Shown one piece after another: positions 30,001 to 36,000 of a stretch of DNA of 64,000 nt. Position 1 is the stretch's first letter; every line of letters begins with the position of its first letter. A program made the position numbers. The stretch lies in NCBI RefSeq assembly GCF_056712565.1, contig NZ_CM160072.1; one strand, 5' to 3'.

Positions 30001-33000
30001 TCAAGCTTGCTTGTACGAACTTGGGGGTGCTTTGCAGGTTATTTCCACTACGATATTCCCCCATGGCAAGTGCATAACGCGTATATCCAGCACGTTGGAG
30101 AACCGGAACAGACGAATAAGGAACATATAATGTCTGAATACTGCCGTCTGCCTCTTTTATGGTTACTTGCAGATTACCACCATTGGCCGCAGAGTTGATA
30201 TCATCAATAGTAAAAGGGCCGGGTGGGACAGTAGTCTGATAAACATCGTATCCATTCTGTTTTACACTCACTTGTGCGGTGCCACGAGCAATACCATGAA
30301 TCACCGGAGCGAAACCATGTTGGCTATCGGGCAACATCGCTTCTGTTGAATTTATTTTAAGGCCACGAAAGTTCACACTGTCAAAAATATCGCCATCGGT
30401 ATAACTATCACCCACTGTTAACCGTGAGCGTAACGGAATAATGTCACGTTCAGCCGACGTATTGATATGCTGCCATTTATTGCTGTCAGATGAATTGCTA
30501 CTCCCACTGTTATAACTCCACGTTGAGTTATCGCGCAGTCGCCAACTACCAATGTTGATGCCACTCTGTAAATTCAAATATGCATAGTTGGATTTTCCTG
30601 CATTATGGTTACTACGGTTATTAATAGAATTACCATCAAAACTATAGTTTAGTAGCCCTGCATTTATTCCTTCTTCCCACAGATCAGGAGAAACATAGCC
30701 GCGAGCCATTCTGCCGACATATATTTGCGGAACGGAGAGTGACAGATGTTGCTGACCAACATCAAACTCAGATGATGCATCAGCCAAACGATCCTGAAGT
30801 GGTGTGCATGCGCTGTTGTCCGGCACATGTTTATCTGCCGAATGTTCCTTGTTGTCTAATAATGCTGATTTTTTTATGCCAAGACTGACAAGAAGGTCTG
30901 TACTCAGGCATGGGATGAGATCTGCGTTATTATCATCTGCAATAAAAGTAATATCCCGACTAGCCATAAATTCGTCGTTCAAATAAATGTCGACCCGATA
31001 TGTACCAGGTGGGGCCTCGCGTCCCTTAGTAAAGGCAGATAAATCGACAGATTCAGCAAGGTCATTGCTTAAAAACCGTGGATTAAAATAATACTCTGCG
31101 TCAACGGGAAAAACCGCAGTTGCTAAGCCAAGGGCAAAGGTAAGCCGTGCAAAGCGAGGCAGTATTAACACCTGATGCATACGATATGCCTTAAATGCGG
31201 CACGAAAGGCTGTCATTTTTAATCCCGATTGAGTTTATTATTAATTAGGTCACTGGCTTACTGCATGGTTGCCTTAATACGCGGAGTTAATGCACCGTAA
31301 TCATTGATTGTCTGAAAACTGATATCCCCGGTTACAGCATGCGGGATATCCACCGATACTTCACCTTTTGGCGGCACCATGGTGTTTGGGAGATTGCTAT
31401 TTCCTGCTTTCATATTTGTTACGGTAATGAAGTAGGGCGTTGGATTAATAAGAGTGAGTTTGCTACCGCTGCGACGAAACCGAAGCATTGCAGGCGCTTC
31501 TTCAGGTGCCATTGCCAGATGCGTGGGGCGATAAAACATTTTTATGCGGCTAATAATTGCCAGCTGTAATGTATTCTCATTCTTCTGGTCTTTTTCCATA
31601 GCAGGGATAGCTTTAACATTAACCCAGAACAGGCTTTCACGGTCGCCTGGTAACTGATGATTAGTGGCGTTGATTATCCGAAGCGTATTCTCTTTTTTAC
31701 CTTGCATGGAAAAAAGCGGTGGGGTAATGACAAACTGGGTATCTTTCTGGTCACCCGCATTTTCTATCCATGACTGAATGAGATAGACACTGGCAGGATC
31801 ATTATTCGTGACAGGCAATAAAACCTGTTTCTGGTTTGCCGGATAAATTACCCGCGTCGCACCAAGTGCGACAGCTGCGTTGGCAATGGTGCTATGGCAA
31901 GCAAAGAGCAATAAAAGTAACACTGTCGCCATAAAGGAAACAGAGTAGGGGGTACGCGTAGTTTGCATCTGATGCATTCTCCATGTGTTAAGAGGATAAG
32001 CGGGGAAACCGTTACATCAGACAATCGGTAAATATTGCTAATGCATTGGCGAGTCGCCGGTTTTCCAGACTTAATGCGTTTGTAATAAATGTTGGTTCTC
32101 TTTTGATAGGAAAACCTTGCTACCAAGTAAATATTTTAAATAACAGCAAGTTTAACTACTGTTGTTTATTGATCGTTTAGATATTATGTGATTTTTCATA
32201 CCGCTCCAAAATACAAACCATTTTTCATTAATAATGAGATGAACATTGGTGAATTTCTCGGGTGTGCGTAGCCATGCCACACACACCCTGTTTCAATTTC
32301 AGATGACACATAGTCACCTTAAGAGTGAATTATAGATATTGAACTTTGAAGGTCGCATCAGCGTTTGCAGTACCAGCTACTGACTGCCCGAGAGCAATAT
32401 AACGAGCCTGGAACGGCAGTATATTCGTGCCATCAATCAAGTCAGTTTTAGCGCTAAAAGTAGCACCATCAAGTACTAATACCTCCCCTGTACGGTCCAA
32501 AATTTGGATACCGACATTTTGGGCAGAGCCTGCCGCTGAACTCTGCAGCGCTAATGTATCGTCATTACTGGTGACAGTAGTACCCAGGAATGCAACAGCT
32601 GCATTACTGGAAACATTGGTATCACAATCATTCAGCTTGATATTGAAGCCAACGGCGGAGCTGAGGTCACCCGCTTTAGCCAGGCGAGAAGAACGAACCT
32701 GACCCAGCTCAACCGTTTGGTTCATTGATTCTGAATCAATCGCACAAGCGGCATTTACCACTTCACCTTTAAAATGAATTACACCGCCATTAACAGTGGT
32801 CGTTACTGATTCATCACCCTCGGCTGCGCTTACCGCAGCAGACGACATCGCCAACACAGAAACGACAATAATACCGACATGTTTGAGTTTCATAATTCTC
32901 CAAAATTTATATTTAAGTAGCTGAATAAAGAGAGTTAACAATTAAGTTATTCTGTTATTGCTTATAAAACAAGAATCATTCTTGATTGGATGTTGCCCTG

Positions 33001-36000
33001 AGAATATAGTTTCCATGGTTATTACATTTCACGAAGAATGATAATATCTTTAAATTACAAGGACACCTATTCACAACAAGTTTATTGCTGCACTTGTTGT
33101 AGAGAGTATTTGTAAAAACATTTTATGTCGCTAAATAACATGACGATTTCATTATGCATGTTATTTATAAACAGCGACTAAACAGAATATTATTGCGAAC
33201 AAGGGAAGTGTCAGGAAAGGTCAAGAGGTACTAATAGTTTATATGGCTATAAACATTAGCTATGATTAATATTTGCCTGGTGAAACTAACACCAAATTGC
33301 TGTAACTCTCTTTGAATCATAAACTGAAGGATGATGCAGCACAGTTCCTCGTGGACTATCCTGGCTACTACATGACCAAACGCGGATATCATCCTCGAGC
33401 AGTCAACTCTGGCCATCTTTTTACTCAGCTATGAGGACCTGATCGTCGACTTTGCTATCTGCATGATGAATCTCCTCAGCAGCAGATGCAGTATTTACCG
33501 AAATGAATTCCATGAATAATGCAGTAATTAGTAGTGCTTTCATATCTGATACCTGTTTTAAACGATATATTTGAAAGTTGACGAATATCGGAAATAGCTT
33601 CCTCCTTCTTGATCTGTAAATATACAGTTCTAAGCTGTCATAAGACTGACTGTCATATGACAACGTTGTTAGATTTTTGAATTTTTCGAATACAGATTCA
33701 GGTCGTTAATAACGCACTCAGGTTCTTCAGTAAGGGGCATATTGTCTATATCGAAAACCCCATCATTTTTTTGTGGATTATCATTCCGCAGCTCTGCAAA
33801 CAGAGGAGTGAGATCCTGCTGTGCTTCTCCTCGCTCTGCGACCAGTTCGAACGTTTTATTTTTTGCCGCATCGTTGCTCAGAGCTGTTACAAGAACCTGG
33901 GCGATTTGCTCCCGGGAGATAACACCATCTTCCGGCGTTCCCGCATGGCGTCTGTCCCCCTGAAGCATGACGATTCTGTGCTCATCATCATTGTTGTAAT
34001 CAAACCAGCCGGGTCTGACGATAGTGTAGATATGCCCACTGGCTCTGACCAGGCGTTCAGAGCGTCTCTTCCAGTCATGAACTTCAGTACGTTGATTCCA
34101 GCTACTGAGCCGCTCAGTTACGCCAATCGTTGTCATCAGGGCGATGCGAACAGGTGTATCCATGAATATTCGCAAAATGTTACGTACACCGCCGTAATCT
34201 ATTGCTCTGGCGCCAATACGTCCCTGACCATCAGAGCCGAGTGTAAAAATGATGGCATCAATATCTTTCGGTAAATCGGTAAGTGTTTCAGGTATTGAAA
34301 CATCGCCATAGAAAATATCTGTTCCACGAGGGAGTAACTTGATTTTCCGCCGATTCCTGACCAGAGTCACGGGCTGATGGCCCATTGCAATAGCAGTATT
34401 CACAACATGAATACCAATACTTCCTGTTGCGCCAGCAACGAGTATTCTCATGATAAACCTTCTGATAATTCAGCCTTATTTTTGATACAGCCAGAATATC
34501 AATTATCATTATTGCCAGTAACGAGGCTAAAATGATTGTGTCTATGAACACCCTTCATGAATGCGCTTTGAAGGGAATGCTTCTACAAGGAAATCTATTC
34601 AACAACGTCTTAAGCAGGCTTCAGATGCACGAGCTCAGGAAGTCGCCGGTAGCGAAGTGCTTTACTCCGGTGATGCCAACCTGACTGATGAACAGATCGC
34701 TAAATTACCTTTTGCGTTATATCGCCAGGGCTACGAGTACTACTGGAAAACCCACGCACACCCAAACATATTCAGAAGCGTGAGGGATATAGTGCCATCA
34801 AAGCGCTGGCTGCTGTAAACAACGCAATTATCCAACTCATGGTCTATGGTGTGCCATCACTGAACAGAGGTTGAATTTTTCTACCGAAACGGGAGGGAAG
34901 TCAGAAATCACAACGTATTGATTTATCTGTGTGTGGATGTGAATGGTGAAGTAAAGGACCTTCACAGGCAATTTAACATAATATACATTATGCGCACCAA
35001 CATAAACCAAGGGAGAATCCAGTCGTTGGCGGTTCATGATTGTTCTGCTCATTAACAACGACCAAAACCCCATATCTTACTTAATACCGTATTCTCGGCT
35101 TAACCGACCGTGCAACCTCAACACATTGGTTTCAACTGCCGTCACCACGTTCTCCGGAAAATCTGTCGGTAATGAAGTCTTCACGTTATCCAGTGCTGCC
35201 GGAATCATTCTGGCAAAGTCACTCAGGATTTCATGCATCTGCACTTCCGGGAATTTCAGCACCTTTGCTGTCGCCAGAAAATGTCGCGGATAAATTTTAT
35301 CGATTGCCGTTTTTTTGCCTTTGGATGCGTTAAGCCCCATTGCCAGTTTGAGATCGCTGATGTGTATTCCCGTACCGCCAAGGACCGGAAATGCCGAAAT
35401 GATGTCATAAAATGGTGTGAGCCGATAACTGCCGCCAGCCTGAATAAATACGGAGAAGTTTTTTGCATGGCCATCTGTTGCGCCAATCAACCACTGGAAG
35501 ACCTGAAACTTCATAAAATCATAGCGATCTTTCAGCGCCTCGCTGGACCCCATCAAAAAAGCCATAATTTGCGCGATACCGGGGCCTCCATCTGATTCAT
35601 ATTTCACCGATGAAGGTAAACCGAATGTCTGGCACATATCCTCCTGTGGCAAGCGAAGTAAAACCGTTCGCTCAGTATTCCAACGCCTGTCAAAACGTTT
35701 GACCGCTAACGCGCGCACCCTTCCCGCTTTAATGATTTCTGCGTCCGGAACATTCAACCCGAGTTCTTTCGCCAGCAGCAAACAGTAATACTCATTATCA
35801 ACGCTTTGGCTAAGATCGAGCGTCGCATTGGGCTGTCTGATTTCGCCAATCGGCAATTTGATAATGTGCGTCGTTGGCGTTATTCCCTTCGGAATGCACC
35901 AGTCATTGCCTATTCTGAGCAGCGCAGTCTTCTCCTGTGCGCCAGCAACCGAGATGCGAAAGTCATTTTCTTCTCTAATCATGCCTAACGGGATATCTGC

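What the first reader, a model, noticed from the sequence alone, without database searches (positions are those of the whole stretch)
32942..35076. Poorly characterised accessory segment between the fimbrial operon and hipBA
This roughly 2.1 kb stretch holds an NmrA/atypical-SDR-like gene (33669-34451), a 40-codon ORF with a convincing signal peptide 126 bp downstream on the same strand (33421-33543), an 85-codon ORF of no recognisable family (34561-34818), and long AT-rich non-coding tracts with a perfect palindrome CAAGAAT-c-ATTCTTG near 32970. I do not recognise this gene set from K-12. It is the least explained part of the window.
Basis: partly seen in the sequence, partly recalled or inferred. 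Interest (0 to 1): 0.55.

Follow-up and report, generated by a model that had tools for sequence, protein, structure and literature searches.

The report
Decayed gene island beside chromosome dif site
The stretch is the worn-down remnant of a larger accessory gene cluster, with one intact reductase gene and several gene fragments, and it sits directly against dif, the site where E. coli resolves chromosome dimers at the replication terminus; this is ordinary gene decay, not a new system.

Summary
It is explainable.

- **SDR gene (33669-34451, minus):** this is the only intact gene. It is an atypical, BLVRB-like NAD(P)H-binding SDR, conserved at 72-95% in about 30 enterobacterial genera. There it is always paired with a divergent LysR regulator, which is deleted here.
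- **40-codon "signal-peptide" ORF:** these are the first 31 codons of an 83-codon DUF1471/BhsA-family gene, cut off at 33450.
- **85-codon ORF:** this is a deletion-made chimera. It joins 11 codons of LysR leader, residues 201-258 of a 343-residue dienelactone-hydrolase-like gene, and 16 unrelated codons.
- **Further fragment:** a 26-codon tail of a Bcr/CflA transporter gene with an internal stop lies at 34790-34867.
- **Source cluster:** Escherichia whittamii holds the intact cluster of about 10 kb. E. coli strains carry at least eight differently deleted versions.
- **dif:** KOPS motifs converge on it, and homology with K-12 resumes at its edge.
- **Palindrome at 32970:** it is real but no more than chance gives.

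Interest is low to moderate. Two points stay unexplained: clustered deletion breakpoints, and a second dif-adjacent SDR remnant in Rosenbergiella.

The parts
32894..33305 (.). Conserved AT-rich upstream (regulatory) region of the fml/F9 fimbrial operon. It includes the 32970-32984 palindrome.
   Evidence: Some part of the 2135-bp query (mainly this region) matches in 5271 of 5426 complete E. coli genomes, mostly at 90-95% identity. An alignment of five strains shows 93% mean column identity, and homology between the K-12/O157-type and B2-type alleles ends at about 33304/5. The fmlA start codon is at 32893.
32970..32984 (.). Perfect palindrome CAAGAAT-c-ATTCTTG, 77-91 bp upstream of the fmlA start.
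   Evidence: It is present. Its frequency is no more than chance gives: 23 observed against 18.8 +/- 4.6 expected in the window, and P(at least one) = 0.26 in this stretch. The arms are kept in a copy that is 84.5% identical over the matched stretch, but this does not exceed the background conservation.
33306..33449 (.). 144-bp filler of unknown origin, specific to the B2-type allele. PGAP marks 33318-33416 (+) as a partial 'hypothetical protein'.
   Evidence: It has no homologue outside E. coli. tblastx and blastn against all fetched loci and the rest of the window found nothing. The PGAP pseudo-CDS appears.
33421..33543 (-). 40-codon ORF. It is the 5' remnant (signal peptide plus 10 residues; homologous DNA 33450-33543) of an 83-codon DUF1471/YhcN/BhsA-family periplasmic protein gene, followed by 9 unrelated codons.
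   Evidence: Full-length 83-aa orthologues follow the SDR in 14 loci, with 61-77% identity over the first 31 aa. The intact orthologue matches NCBIfam BhsA at 7e-23, and also McbA, YbiJ and YhcN. Homology to intact modules stops at 33450. PGAP calls it 'BhsA ... missing C-terminus'. The window copy has a Glu in the hydrophobic core (MEF against MGF) and a weakened Shine-Dalgarno (CAGG against GAGG).
33544..33668 (-). Conserved control region upstream of the DUF1471 gene, carrying TGACA/TGTCA-type palindromes.
   Evidence: An alignment of 15 sequences shows conserved CTGACAATTTTGTCAT..GGTCAG..ATGACAGC and CTGTATATT..AATATACAG motifs. No Rfam family matches.
33669..34451 (-). Intact atypical SDR, an NAD(P)H-binding BLVRB/At5g02240-like reductase of 260 aa. 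It is the only intact gene of the island.
   Evidence: Pfam NAD_binding_10 scores E 4.9e-32 over the whole model. Orthologues are 72-95% identical in about 30 genera. dN/dS is about 0.10 against six orthologues, and only three conservative lineage-specific changes occur. G7, G10 and G13 are invariant. The AF2 model has pLDDT 94, and the best PDB folds are At5g02240, YlbE, BLVRB and ChuY. RefSeq lists it as WP_001221834.1, 'SDR family oxidoreductase'.
34452..34595 (.). Divergent SDR/LysR control region. It is retained almost whole and ends about 4 bp before where the LysR ATG used to be.
   Evidence: It averages 87.5% identity to 17 other loci, slightly above the flanking coding DNA at 82-85%. 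The deletion junction relative to Nissle is at 34595. The best promoter-like site of the region (TTGATA-16-TATCAT, 10/12, + strand, 34482-34509) points towards the lost LysR and so now towards the 85-codon ORF.
34561..34818 (+). 85-codon chimeric ORF: 11 codons of LysR leader, then 58 codons from the middle of a DLH-like hydrolase gene, then 16 unrelated codons. It is a deletion artefact, not a gene family.
   Evidence: Nissle has 823 extra bp here that hold LysR codons 1-194 and more of the hydrolase. ORF residues 12-69 match residues 201-258 of the 343-aa E. whittamii DLH at 95%. An alignment with nine homologues shows that both the Cys nucleophile motif (GICGGGG) and the C-terminal DGATHIE region lie outside the fragment.
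34595..34767 (+). DNA remnant of the dienelactone-hydrolase/Peptidase_S15-family gene.
   Evidence: It is 97.1% identical to E. whittamii L046 6879-6707, inside an intact 343-aa gene carrying PF01738 and PF02129.
34790..34867 (-). 26-codon remnant of the 3' end of a Bcr/CflA-family MFS efflux transporter gene, with an internal stop.
   Evidence: tblastn gives 24/26 identical to residues 383-408 of a 414-aa transporter, with W changed to stop. The DNA is 90-91% identical to L015 and L028. The transporter matches TIGR00710 at 1e-86.
34971..34998 (-). dif, the XerC/XerD chromosome-dimer resolution site at the replication terminus. On the + strand the XerD arm is 34971-34981, the central region 34982-34987 and the XerC arm 34988-34998.
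   Evidence: It matches GGTGCGCATAATGTATATTATGTTAAAT at 28/28, and the next best 28-mer in the window has 10 mismatches. The sequence is as listed for E. coli K-12 in PMC2731167. KOPS (GGGNAGGG) motifs number 5 on + and 0 on - to the left, and 0 on + and 2 on - to the right. Cumulative GC skew is flat up to about 32 kb and falls after 36 kb. The position is the same as in K-12, between yneL and hipA.
35077..36399 (-). hipA, given as context. It is the right-hand neighbour, 78 bp from dif.

Best explanation
The segment is a composite of three things.

1. **fml upstream region (32894-33305).** This is the conserved AT-rich upstream region of the fml/F9 fimbrial operon. It is shared by nearly all E. 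coli.

2. **Eroded gene cluster (33306-34970).** This is the stump of an accessory cluster of about 10 kb. The order in the intact cluster is DLH hydrolase, AEC transporter, a/b hydrolase, response regulator, histidine kinase, cupin, CMD-family protein, a/b hydrolase, LysR, then the SDR. Other genera add a DUF1471 gene after the SDR. The cluster is intact in Escherichia whittamii. In E. coli phylogroup-B2-type strains it has been cut down by a series of illegitimate deletions with 0-4 bp of microhomology.
   - In this window only the SDR survives intact.
   - The 40-codon ORF is the truncated 5' end of the DUF1471/BhsA-family gene.
   - The 85-codon ORF is a chimera across the deletion that removed the LysR regulator.
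   - A transporter tail is also left.

3. **dif (34971-34998).** This is the chromosomal dif site, where XerC/XerD resolve chromosome dimers at the replication terminus.

How it works:
- **Shown:** dif is the functional landmark. KOPS polarity converges on it, and it sits where K-12's dif does.
- **Shown:** the SDR is a Rossmann-fold protein of the BLVRB/At5g02240 type.
- **Inferred:** the SDR is an NAD(P)H-dependent reductase that transfers hydride to a planar electrophile such as a quinone, flavin or dye-like compound.
- **Inferred:** having lost its divergent LysR activator, the SDR is probably expressed only at a basal level. It is on its way to loss, as has already happened in most strains with this flank.
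- **Inferred:** the orphaned lysR promoter probably transcribes the chimeric ORF, whose product lacks all catalytic residues.
- **Inferred:** the many independent deletions reflect weak selection on the island, together with the known fragility and recombination activity of DNA around dif.
For: **Identity of the locus**
- The window is 99.994% identical to the E. coli type strain ATCC 11775 over 32.1 kb and has the same gene order.

**The module in other genera**
- The SDR and a divergent LysR (about 92% aa identity) are found together in all 30 intact loci.
- An 83-aa DUF1471 gene follows the SDR in 14 loci.
- Homology of the window to these modules covers exactly 33450-34595.

**The deletion series**
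- The Nissle allele carries 823 extra bp with LysR codons 1-194 and more of the hydrolase.
- The MS20659 allele is 5.7 kb long and has four more genes.
- The E. whittamii locus is collinear at 92-97% identity and intact.
- Other deletion alleles are DLL557, N44/JJ1886, GN05476, 82.0312, S88 and others.

**Frequencies among 5426 complete genomes**
- The B2-type dif flank is in 906 genomes.
- Any SDR DNA is in 367 genomes, and at least 80% of the gene is in 271.
- The window-type junction is in 117 genomes.

**The fragments**
- The DLH fragment matches residues 201-258 of 343 at 95%.
- The MFS tail is 24/26 identical and carries a stop.

**The SDR**
- Pfam E is 4.9e-32 and dN/dS is about 0.10.
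- The model has pLDDT 94 and matches BLVRB-like folds.

**dif**
- It matches 28/28 and KOPS motifs converge on it.
- K-12 homology resumes at 34970/71.
- dif lies between yneL and hipA in K-12, and the sequence is as published.
- Division-induced breaks centred on dif are documented in PMC5638614.
Against: - No expression data were available. The statements that the SDR is poorly expressed without LysR, and that the chimeric ORF is transcribed from the lysR promoter, are inferences. The consensus scan found 8 promoter-like sites against 6.6 +/- 2.6 expected, so it is not informative overall.
- The SDR is still perfectly intact and 100% identical across many strains, so it may still be useful.
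- The 144 bp at 33306-33449 and about 100 bp at 34868-34970 remain unidentified.
- Breakpoints cluster more tightly than random nested deletions predict: 33305, 33306 and 33311 on the left, and the identical base 34595 in two alleles on the right. The simple 'random decay' picture does not explain this.
- The link between dif proximity and the deletion rate was not tested against control loci.
Confidence: 0.85

Rival explanations
1. The SDR, the 40-codon secreted peptide and the 85-codon protein form a functional three-gene accessory unit, and the small ORFs are genuine small-protein genes.
For: - The SDR and a small signal-peptide gene do co-occur in 14 other genera.
- Both small ORFs are called as proteins in public records: WP_001210030.1 for the 85-aa ORF, and 'hypothetical protein' entries on more than 1000 contigs.
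- The DUF1471 upstream region and start codon are retained.
Against: - What co-occurs elsewhere is the 83-codon form. The window ORF shares only its first 31 codons and lacks the entire DUF1471 domain.
- The window ORF has a charged residue in the signal-peptide core and a weakened Shine-Dalgarno.
- The 85-codon ORF exists only because of an 823-bp deletion. It covers 58 internal residues of a 343-residue hydrolase and none of the catalytic residues.
- Neither ORF hits any NCBIfam family.
- Both ORFs occur only in E. coli.
Confidence: 0.04
2. The island is, or was, cargo of a dif-targeting mobile element of the IMEX type. On this reading XerCD recombination brought it in at dif, and its variability reflects Xer-mediated gain and loss rather than plain deletion.
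For: - The variable DNA abuts the outer edge of the XerD arm exactly.
- A decayed copy of the same SDR lies 208 bp from dif, on the same side and in the same orientation, in the distant genus Rosenbergiella. Extra XerC-arm-like sequences lie nearby.
- A filamentous prophage of the CUS-1/Ypf type uses this very dif in strain 82.0312. Such integration at dif is documented (PMC2731167, PMC4266046).
- Breakpoints cluster.
Against: - There is no second dif-like site anywhere in the window; the best other 28-mer has 10 mismatches.
- There is also none at the left boundary.
- Of the 32 module loci from other species (L006-L037), only Rosenbergiella has a site with at most 6 mismatches to dif in its roughly 6-kb flanks. 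That includes the closest relative, in E. whittamii.
- K-12-type strains do not show an empty site. They hold a different remnant, yneL.
- All the junctions examined lie inside genes and have 0-4 bp of microhomology, as in illegitimate deletion.
Confidence: 0.08
3. The SDR is already functionally dead in this strain. It would be silent without its LysR activator, and its intact reading frame would reflect only the recency of the deletion.
For: - The LysR gene is entirely deleted here, and no sigma-70-like promoter is predicted on the SDR strand.
- About 60% of genomes with the B2-type dif flank have lost the SDR altogether (906 against 367).
- Many strains carry truncated SDR alleles covering 78%, 53%, 43%, 35% or 28% of the gene.
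- The SDR sequence is 100% identical among window-type and Nissle-type strains, so too little time has passed for decay to show.
Against: - The full control region is retained, and it is as conserved as the coding DNA.
- Long-term dN/dS is 0.10.
- The consensus promoter scan is weak evidence.
- A paralogous LysR could cross-activate the promoter. This was not tested.
Confidence: 0.4

Closest known systems
E. coli dif / XerCD chromosome dimer resolution site (K-12: between yneL and hipA)
   Same: The 28-bp sequence is identical. It has the same neighbour (hipA) and the same orientation relative to KOPS polarity, and it lies at the GC-skew switch.
   Different: The DNA on the XerD-arm side differs from K-12: this strain has the eroded island where K-12 has the yneL remnant. 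RefSeq records do not annotate the site.
Atypical SDRs of the NAD_binding_10 / BLVRB-like group (At5g02240, L. lactis YlbE, human biliverdin IX-beta/flavin reductase, E. coli ChuY, YtfG)
   Same: It has a Rossmann fold with an N-terminal GxxGxxG motif and a full-length PF13460 match. The TM-score to At5g02240 is 0.75-0.80, and to BLVRB, YlbE and ChuY 0.58-0.67 normalised on the query and 0.75-0.78 on the target.
   Different: Sequence identity to any solved structure is only 15-23%. It forms its own subfamily (119 clusters at E <= 1e-30). The substrate is unknown, and the gene sits in a characteristic divergent pairing with a YafC-like LysR regulator.
DUF1471 / YhcN family small periplasmic stress proteins (BhsA, McbA, YbiJ, YhcN)
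   Same: The intact 83-aa orthologues match the BhsA model over its full length (7e-23) and have the family's signal peptide and C-terminal ...HGVAEIYK.
   Different: The window copy keeps only the signal peptide plus 10 residues, so it is not a family member in any functional sense. Even the intact orthologues score below the BhsA equivalog cut-off (81 against 90 bits), so they are a paralogous subfamily.
IMEX elements at dif (CUS-1 of E. coli O18:K1:H7, Ypf-phi, CTX-phi)
   Same: They use the same chromosomal site. A CUS-1-like filamentous prophage sits at this dif in strain 82.0312, and that dif copy has an altered XerC arm (PMC2731167, PMC4266046).
   Different: The window has no phage genes and no second dif-like site. 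The island lies on the XerD-arm side, whereas the prophage lies on the XerC-arm side.
LysR-type regulator with a divergently transcribed target gene (for example, YafC-like LTTRs)
   Same: In all 30 intact loci the SDR is divergent from a LysR gene, across a conserved region of about 148 bp. The LysR is most similar to YafC, but below the equivalog cut-off.
   Different: In the window the regulator gene is gone. Only its promoter/leader and the target gene remain.

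Membership tests
dif (XerC/XerD site) | 28-bp site made of an 11-bp XerC arm, a 6-bp central region and an 11-bp XerD arm, matching the species consensus | tested here: met
   It matches 28/28 at 34971-34998. The consensus is as printed for E. coli K-12 in PMC2731167.
dif (XerC/XerD site) | Unique site located at the replication terminus, where KOPS polarity and GC skew switch | tested here: met
   There is a single copy in the window. KOPS number 5 on + and 0 on - to the left, and 0 on + and 2 on - to the right. Cumulative skew is flat and then falls from about 32-36 kb. 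Only 64 kb could be examined.
dif (XerC/XerD site) | Same chromosomal position as the experimentally defined dif of K-12 | tested here: met
   The identical 28-mer lies between yneL and hipA in NC_000913.3. The deletion analysis in bioRxiv 10.1101/2025.09.02.673814 places dif in the yneL-hipA intergenic region.
dif (XerC/XerD site) | XerCD/FtsK-dependent recombination activity | not testable with these tools
   This needs a recombination or dimer-resolution assay.
Atypical SDR, NAD_binding_10 (PF13460) | Full-length match to the family profile | tested here: met
   E 4.9e-32, with residues 7-193 aligned to model positions 1-183 of 184.
Atypical SDR, NAD_binding_10 (PF13460) | N-terminal glycine-rich dinucleotide-binding motif and Rossmann fold | tested here: met
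   GATGSIG occupies residues 7-13, and G7, G10 and G13 are invariant in 28 homologues. The AF2 model has pLDDT 94, and its best PDB matches are all NADP-binding Rossmann reductases.
Atypical SDR, NAD_binding_10 (PF13460) | NAD(P)H-dependent reductase activity on a defined substrate | not testable with these tools
   No characterised orthologue was found. Sources name it only 'SDR family oxidoreductase'.
DUF1471 / YhcN / BhsA family (for the 40-codon ORF) | Signal peptide followed by the DUF1471 domain of about 60 residues | tested here: not met
   The window ORF has no family hit. Only codons 1-31 align to the 83-aa orthologues, and homology ends at 33450. The orthologues themselves meet the feature (BhsA 7e-23).
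Dienelactone hydrolase / alpha-beta hydrolase (for the 85-codon ORF) | Complete alpha/beta fold with the nucleophile (GxCxG), acid and His triad | tested here: not met
   The ORF covers only residues 201-258 of the 343-aa protein. The GICGGGG and DGATHIE regions lie outside it.
LysR-regulated divergent gene pair | LysR-family gene divergent from the target gene | tested here: not met
   The LysR gene is deleted in the window and truncated in Nissle. It is intact in E. whittamii and 29 other loci.
IMEX (Xer-exploiting integrative element) | Element bounded by dif and a second dif-like site | tested here: not met
   There is no other 28-mer with fewer than 10 mismatches in the window. Among the module loci from other species, only Rosenbergiella shows any site with at most 6 mismatches.
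IMEX (Xer-exploiting integrative element) | Empty-site allele in related genomes that differs only by the element | tested here: not met
   K-12/O157-type strains carry a different 450-bp yneL remnant rather than an empty site.
Bcr/CflA MFS transporter (34790-34867) | Transporter of about 400 aa with 12 transmembrane segments | tested here: not met
   Only 26 C-terminal codons remain, and they carry an internal stop.

The most novel reading that the evidence does not exclude
The DNA immediately on the XerD-arm side of dif may be a special zone where foreign modules are captured and then removed by a breakpoint-specific process, and not simply a place where junk decays. Two observations would fit this. 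The SDR-LysR-DUF1471 module would be recurrent cargo of that process: it is seen decayed next to dif in both E. coli B2 and Rosenbergiella nectarea, in the same orientation. The clustered breakpoints would mark preferred cleavage or joining sites: 33305, 33306 and 33311 on the left, the identical base 34595 in two alleles, and the exact edge of the XerD arm.
Probability: 0.1. Interest if true: 0.6.

Novelty: new member of a known kind. Interest (0 to 1): 0.27.

Why it matters
- **Annotation.** The result turns an "unexplained" stretch into a fully parsed one and corrects two database-propagated "hypothetical proteins". WP_001210030.1 and the 40-aa ORF are gene relics, not genes.
- **dif.** It locates the unannotated dif site in the E. 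coli type-strain lineage.
- **Decay series.** It documents a natural series of at least eight deletion alleles of one island directly beside dif. Anyone studying terminus instability or gene decay in extraintestinal pathogenic E. coli could use this as a ready-made data set.
- **The module.** The SDR-LysR(-DUF1471) module is a widespread enterobacterial unit that has not been characterised. Its LysR and SDR proteins are unusually well conserved, and it would be a reasonable target for functional work. Nothing here suggests a new kind of system.

Tried and rejected
- **Rfam scan of 32000-37000** at E <= 1 found no RNA family.
- **NCBIfam on the small ORFs.** The 40-aa ORF, the 85-aa ORF and the + strand 40-aa ORF gave no hits.
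- **Identity of 33306-33449.**
  - The repeat search found only E. coli copies.
  - tblastx and blastn against all loci found nothing.
  - No relation to yneL or to the HTH gene of the WW2 island was found.
- **Palindrome at 32970 as a regulatory site.** It is not enriched over chance and not conserved above background.
- **Second dif-like site or attachment site at the island's left edge.** None was found.
- **Promoter and terminator scan.** It found 8 promoter-like sites against 6.6 expected and 0 terminators, which is not informative beyond the lysR-direction site.
- **The 354-aa a/b hydrolase of MS20659 as the parent of the 85-codon ORF.** It is unrelated (E = 1.1). The true parent is the 343-aa DLH of E. 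whittamii.
- **Orthology between E. coli HipA and the Rosenbergiella HipA-like kinase.** They share only 28% identity over the kinase core, so they are paralogues at best.
- **A highly elevated conservation of the SDR-LysR intergenic region.** The excess is only modest, 87.5% against 82-85%.

Full report
**Where we are.** The window is E. coli. From 31901 to 64000 it is 99.994% identical to the type strain ATCC 11775. The finding lies between the major-subunit gene of the fml/F9 fimbrial operon (32330-32893, minus strand) and hipA (35077-36399, minus strand), followed by hipB and tam. RefSeq annotates three things in the interval:
- an "SDR family oxidoreductase", WP_001221834.1;
- an 85-aa "hypothetical protein", WP_001210030.1;
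- a 33-codon partial "hypothetical protein".

**Checking the observation.**
- The 32894-33668 stretch has 34.7% GC.
- The palindrome CAAGAATcATTCTTG is at 32970-32984.
- Palindromes of this class (7-bp arms, loops of 0-3) occur 23 times in the window, against 18.8 +/- 4.6 in first-order Markov simulations.
- The probability of at least one in this 775-bp AT-rich stretch is 0.26.
- The palindrome lies 77-91 bp upstream of fmlA, inside a 412-bp region that is about 93% conserved across E. coli. It is not conserved beyond that background.
- I treat it as unremarkable. A role in fml regulation is not excluded.

**The SDR and its natural partners.** The 260-aa product matches Pfam NAD_binding_10 over the whole model (E 4.9e-32), and NmrA more weakly.
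- A scan of one genome per species found relatives in 32 loci from about 30 enterobacterial genera. The 30 intact copies are 72-95% identical.
- In all 30 of those, a LysR-family gene (about 92% identical, YafC-like but below the equivalog cut-off) is divergently transcribed across about 148 bp.
- In 14 loci an 83-codon gene follows the SDR on the same strand.
- That small protein matches the NCBIfam models BhsA (7e-23), McbA, YbiJ and YhcN. It belongs to the DUF1471/YhcN family of small periplasmic stress proteins.
- DNA homology between the window and these intact modules runs exactly from 33450 to 34595.

**The 40-codon ORF.** Its first 31 codons align to the 83-codon orthologues at 61-77% identity. 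After that the sequence is unrelated and hits a stop nine codons later.
- It is the 5' stump of the DUF1471 gene: the signal peptide plus ten residues.
- PGAP reaches the same conclusion in strain MS20659 ([quoted passage not shown]).
- The stump shows decay. It has a Glu in the hydrophobic core (MEF, where 11 of the 14 full-length orthologues have MGF and none has a charged residue), and its Shine-Dalgarno is changed from GAGG to CAGG.

**The 85-codon ORF.**
- Compared with Nissle 1917, the window lacks 823 bp (L001 4655-5477). That DNA holds LysR codons 1-194 and part of a gene PGAP calls "acetylxylan esterase".
- The ORF starts at an ATG in the LysR leader. It crosses the deletion junction at 34595 after 11 codons and continues in the esterase frame.
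- Its residues 12-69 are 95% identical to residues 201-258 of an intact 343-aa secreted hydrolase of E. whittamii (Pfam DLH and Peptidase_S15). The last 16 residues are unrelated.
- The nucleophile motif (GICGGGG) and the C-terminal DGATHIE region both lie outside the fragment.
- The ORF is a by-product of the deletion.
- The best promoter-like site in the region (10/12, 34482-34509, + strand) is the presumed lysR promoter. It now points into this ORF, so the ORF may well be transcribed (inference).

**More debris.** Window 34790-34867 (minus strand) encodes 24 of 26 residues identical to the C-terminus of a Bcr/CflA MFS transporter, with an internal stop. The 144 bp at 33306-33449 and about 100 bp before 34971 could not be assigned to anything.

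**The parent cluster and the deletion series.**
- E. whittamii carries a collinear, intact cluster at 92-97% DNA identity. The gene order is DLH hydrolase, AEC-type transporter, a/b hydrolase, response regulator, sensor kinase, cupin, CMD-family protein, a/b hydrolase, LysR, SDR.
- E. coli MS20659 keeps a 5.7-kb version with three internal deletions.
- Nissle and CFT073 keep the SDR, two-thirds of LysR and a longer hydrolase piece.
- The window type keeps only the SDR.
- DLL557 has lost the SDR's 5' end, and GN05476 has lost another part.
- N44 and JJ1886 (ST131) have lost the SDR completely.
- 82.0312 has lost still more.
- Further truncated SDR alleles cover 53%, 43%, 35% and 28% of the gene.
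- All the junctions I examined show 0-4 bp of overlap, as in illegitimate recombination.
- Frequencies among 5426 complete genomes:
  - 906 have the B2-type flank next to dif;
  - 367 have any SDR DNA, and 271 have at least 80% of the gene;
  - 117 have the window-type junction.
- K-12/O157-type strains carry a different 450-bp segment in the same place, the AraC-type yneL remnant.

**The missed landmark.** A paper retrieved while checking yneL places dif between yneL and hipA in K-12.
- The exact 28-bp E. coli dif (GGTGCGCATAATGTATATTATGTTAAAT, as tabulated in PMC2731167) lies at 34971-34998 on the minus strand, 78 bp from the hipA stop. The next best 28-mer in the window has 10 mismatches.
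- The FtsK-orienting motif GGGNAGGG occurs five times on the + strand and never on the - strand to the left. To the right it occurs twice on the - strand and never on the + strand.
- Cumulative GC skew is flat up to about 32 kb and falls steadily from about 36 kb.
- Homology between the window and K-12-type strains resumes exactly at 34970/71, the outer edge of the XerD arm.
- The "least explained part of the window" is therefore the replication terminus. The variable island occupies the XerD-arm flank of dif.
- PGAP records carry no feature for the site.

**What the surviving gene probably does.**
- The SDR has evolved under purifying selection, with dN/dS of about 0.10 against six orthologues, including the closest one at dS 0.28.
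- It differs from near-invariant columns at only three conservative positions.
- An AlphaFold model built on 28 homologues is confident (pLDDT 94, pTM 0.93).
- Its best matches in the PDB are At5g02240 (TM 0.75-0.80), L. lactis YlbE, human biliverdin-IX-beta/flavin reductase and E. coli ChuY anaerobilin reductase.
- By sequence, the nearest solved proteins are 3e8x, an NmrA-family protein, YtfG and triphenylmethane reductase.
- From this I infer an NAD(P)H-dependent reductase that acts on a planar electrophile such as a quinone, flavin, dye or tetrapyrrole.
- The gene neighbourhood is consistent with electrophile or oxidant detoxification: LysR, hydrolases, a CMD/AhpD-like protein, a cupin, aldo-keto reductases in some genera, and a BhsA-like stress protein.
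- This is inference. No orthologue has been characterised.
- With its LysR gone, the gene may be nearly silent. I put that at about 40%.

**Why next to dif.**
- Division-linked double-strand breaks centred on dif are documented (PMC5638614, from its abstract).
- dif is a known entry point for Xer-exploiting elements such as CUS-1 (PMC2731167, PMC4266046).
- In strain 82.0312 a filamentous prophage (Zot-like, secretin, DUF2523) begins right after the XerC arm, and that dif copy carries one substitution in the arm.
- I found no sign that the island itself came in through Xer recombination. There is no second dif-like site. Intact copies in other genera are not near dif. K-12-type strains do not present an empty site.

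Two observations keep a small door open. I could not test either against control loci, so the link to dif remains an inference.
- Rosenbergiella nectarea has a decayed copy of the same SDR 208 bp from its dif, on the XerD side and in the same orientation. A HipA-family kinase gene lies next to it.
- Breakpoints of independent alleles cluster. On the left they fall at 33304/5, 33306 and 33311/12. On the right, the window-type and N44-type junctions start the hydrolase remnant at the very same base.

**Verdict.** It is a decaying accessory island with one surviving reductase gene, two ORFs that are gene relics, and the conserved fml upstream region, all lying against the well-known dif site. The sequences are all in public databases under uninformative names. 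The SDR-LysR(-DUF1471) module is an uncharacterised member of known families.

Noticed in passing
window 34971-34998: The exact dif site is not annotated in the RefSeq/PGAP records of ATCC 11775 or Nissle 1917. A purely mechanical 78-codon ORF (34837-35073, minus strand) runs across it.
   Followed up: yes
L038 (E. coli 82.0312) 4877-9051: A filamentous prophage (Zot-family protein, pIV/GspD-like secretin, DUF2523 protein) starts immediately after the XerC arm of dif. That dif copy has one substitution in the XerC arm (TTATACGCACC). It looks like a CUS-1/Ypf-type Xer-exploiting phage.
   Followed up: partly
L035 (Rosenbergiella nectarea) 4274-7670: A decayed copy of the same SDR (codons ~11-38 and 145-255, with stops) lies 208 bp from a dif site that has 1 mismatch (5690-5717). 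It is on the XerD-arm side and in the same orientation as in E. coli. The next gene is a HipA-family kinase with an N-terminal HTH. An inverted copy of the XerC arm sits 8 nt before dif, and a dif-like site with 8 mismatches lies at 4274.
   Followed up: partly
window 33305-33312 and 34595; L004, L038, L003: Independent structural alleles share near-identical breakpoints. Three left ends fall within 7 bp. Two alleles (window type and N44 type) start the hydrolase remnant at the same base. K-12-type homology resumes exactly at the edge of the XerD arm. This is not explained by random nested deletions.
   Followed up: partly
window 33544-33668; L008, L010, L013 etc. upstream of the DUF1471 gene: Conserved palindromic motifs occur in the promoter region of the DUF1471 gene across 14 loci: CTGACAATTTTGTCAT, GGTCAG..ATGACAG and CTGTATATT..AATATACAG. 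In the window the first has become TGTCATATGACA. The regulator is unknown.
   Followed up: no
window 34452-34595 and L006-L034 equivalents: The 148-bp SDR-LysR intergenic region averages 87.5% identity across genera, slightly above the flanking coding DNA. It has an almost invariant core, TCATGAAGGGTGTTCATAGACACAATCATTTTAGCC, which presumably holds the LysR operator and the divergent promoters.
   Followed up: partly
L046 (Escherichia whittamii) 1313-5598: Next to the intact island lies a three-gene cluster that looks like an anti-phage defence system: an AAA_15/SMC_N ATPase, an MComp1-domain protein, and a Cap4-nuclease/CTD1 protein.
   Followed up: no
L042 (E. coli WW2) 2448-6545: A second copy of the module, 84.5% identical over the SDR gene, sits in an integrase-bearing island at tRNA-Sec. 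It comprises an HTH protein, an intact 83-aa DUF1471 protein and a frameshifted SDR. The module therefore also travels on conventional islands.
   Followed up: no
window 36684-36972: hipB is followed directly by tam. The yneO autotransporter pseudogene that follows hipB in K-12 is absent from this strain, as in other B2-type strains.
   Followed up: no
L045 (E. coli E500002) 1501-2524: A divergent copy (84.5% identical over the matched stretch) of the fmlA upstream region lies elsewhere in that chromosome. It is followed by an a/b-hydrolase fragment, an IS481 fragment and an HTH fragment, so this may be a duplicated or transferred version of the same locus.
   Followed up: no
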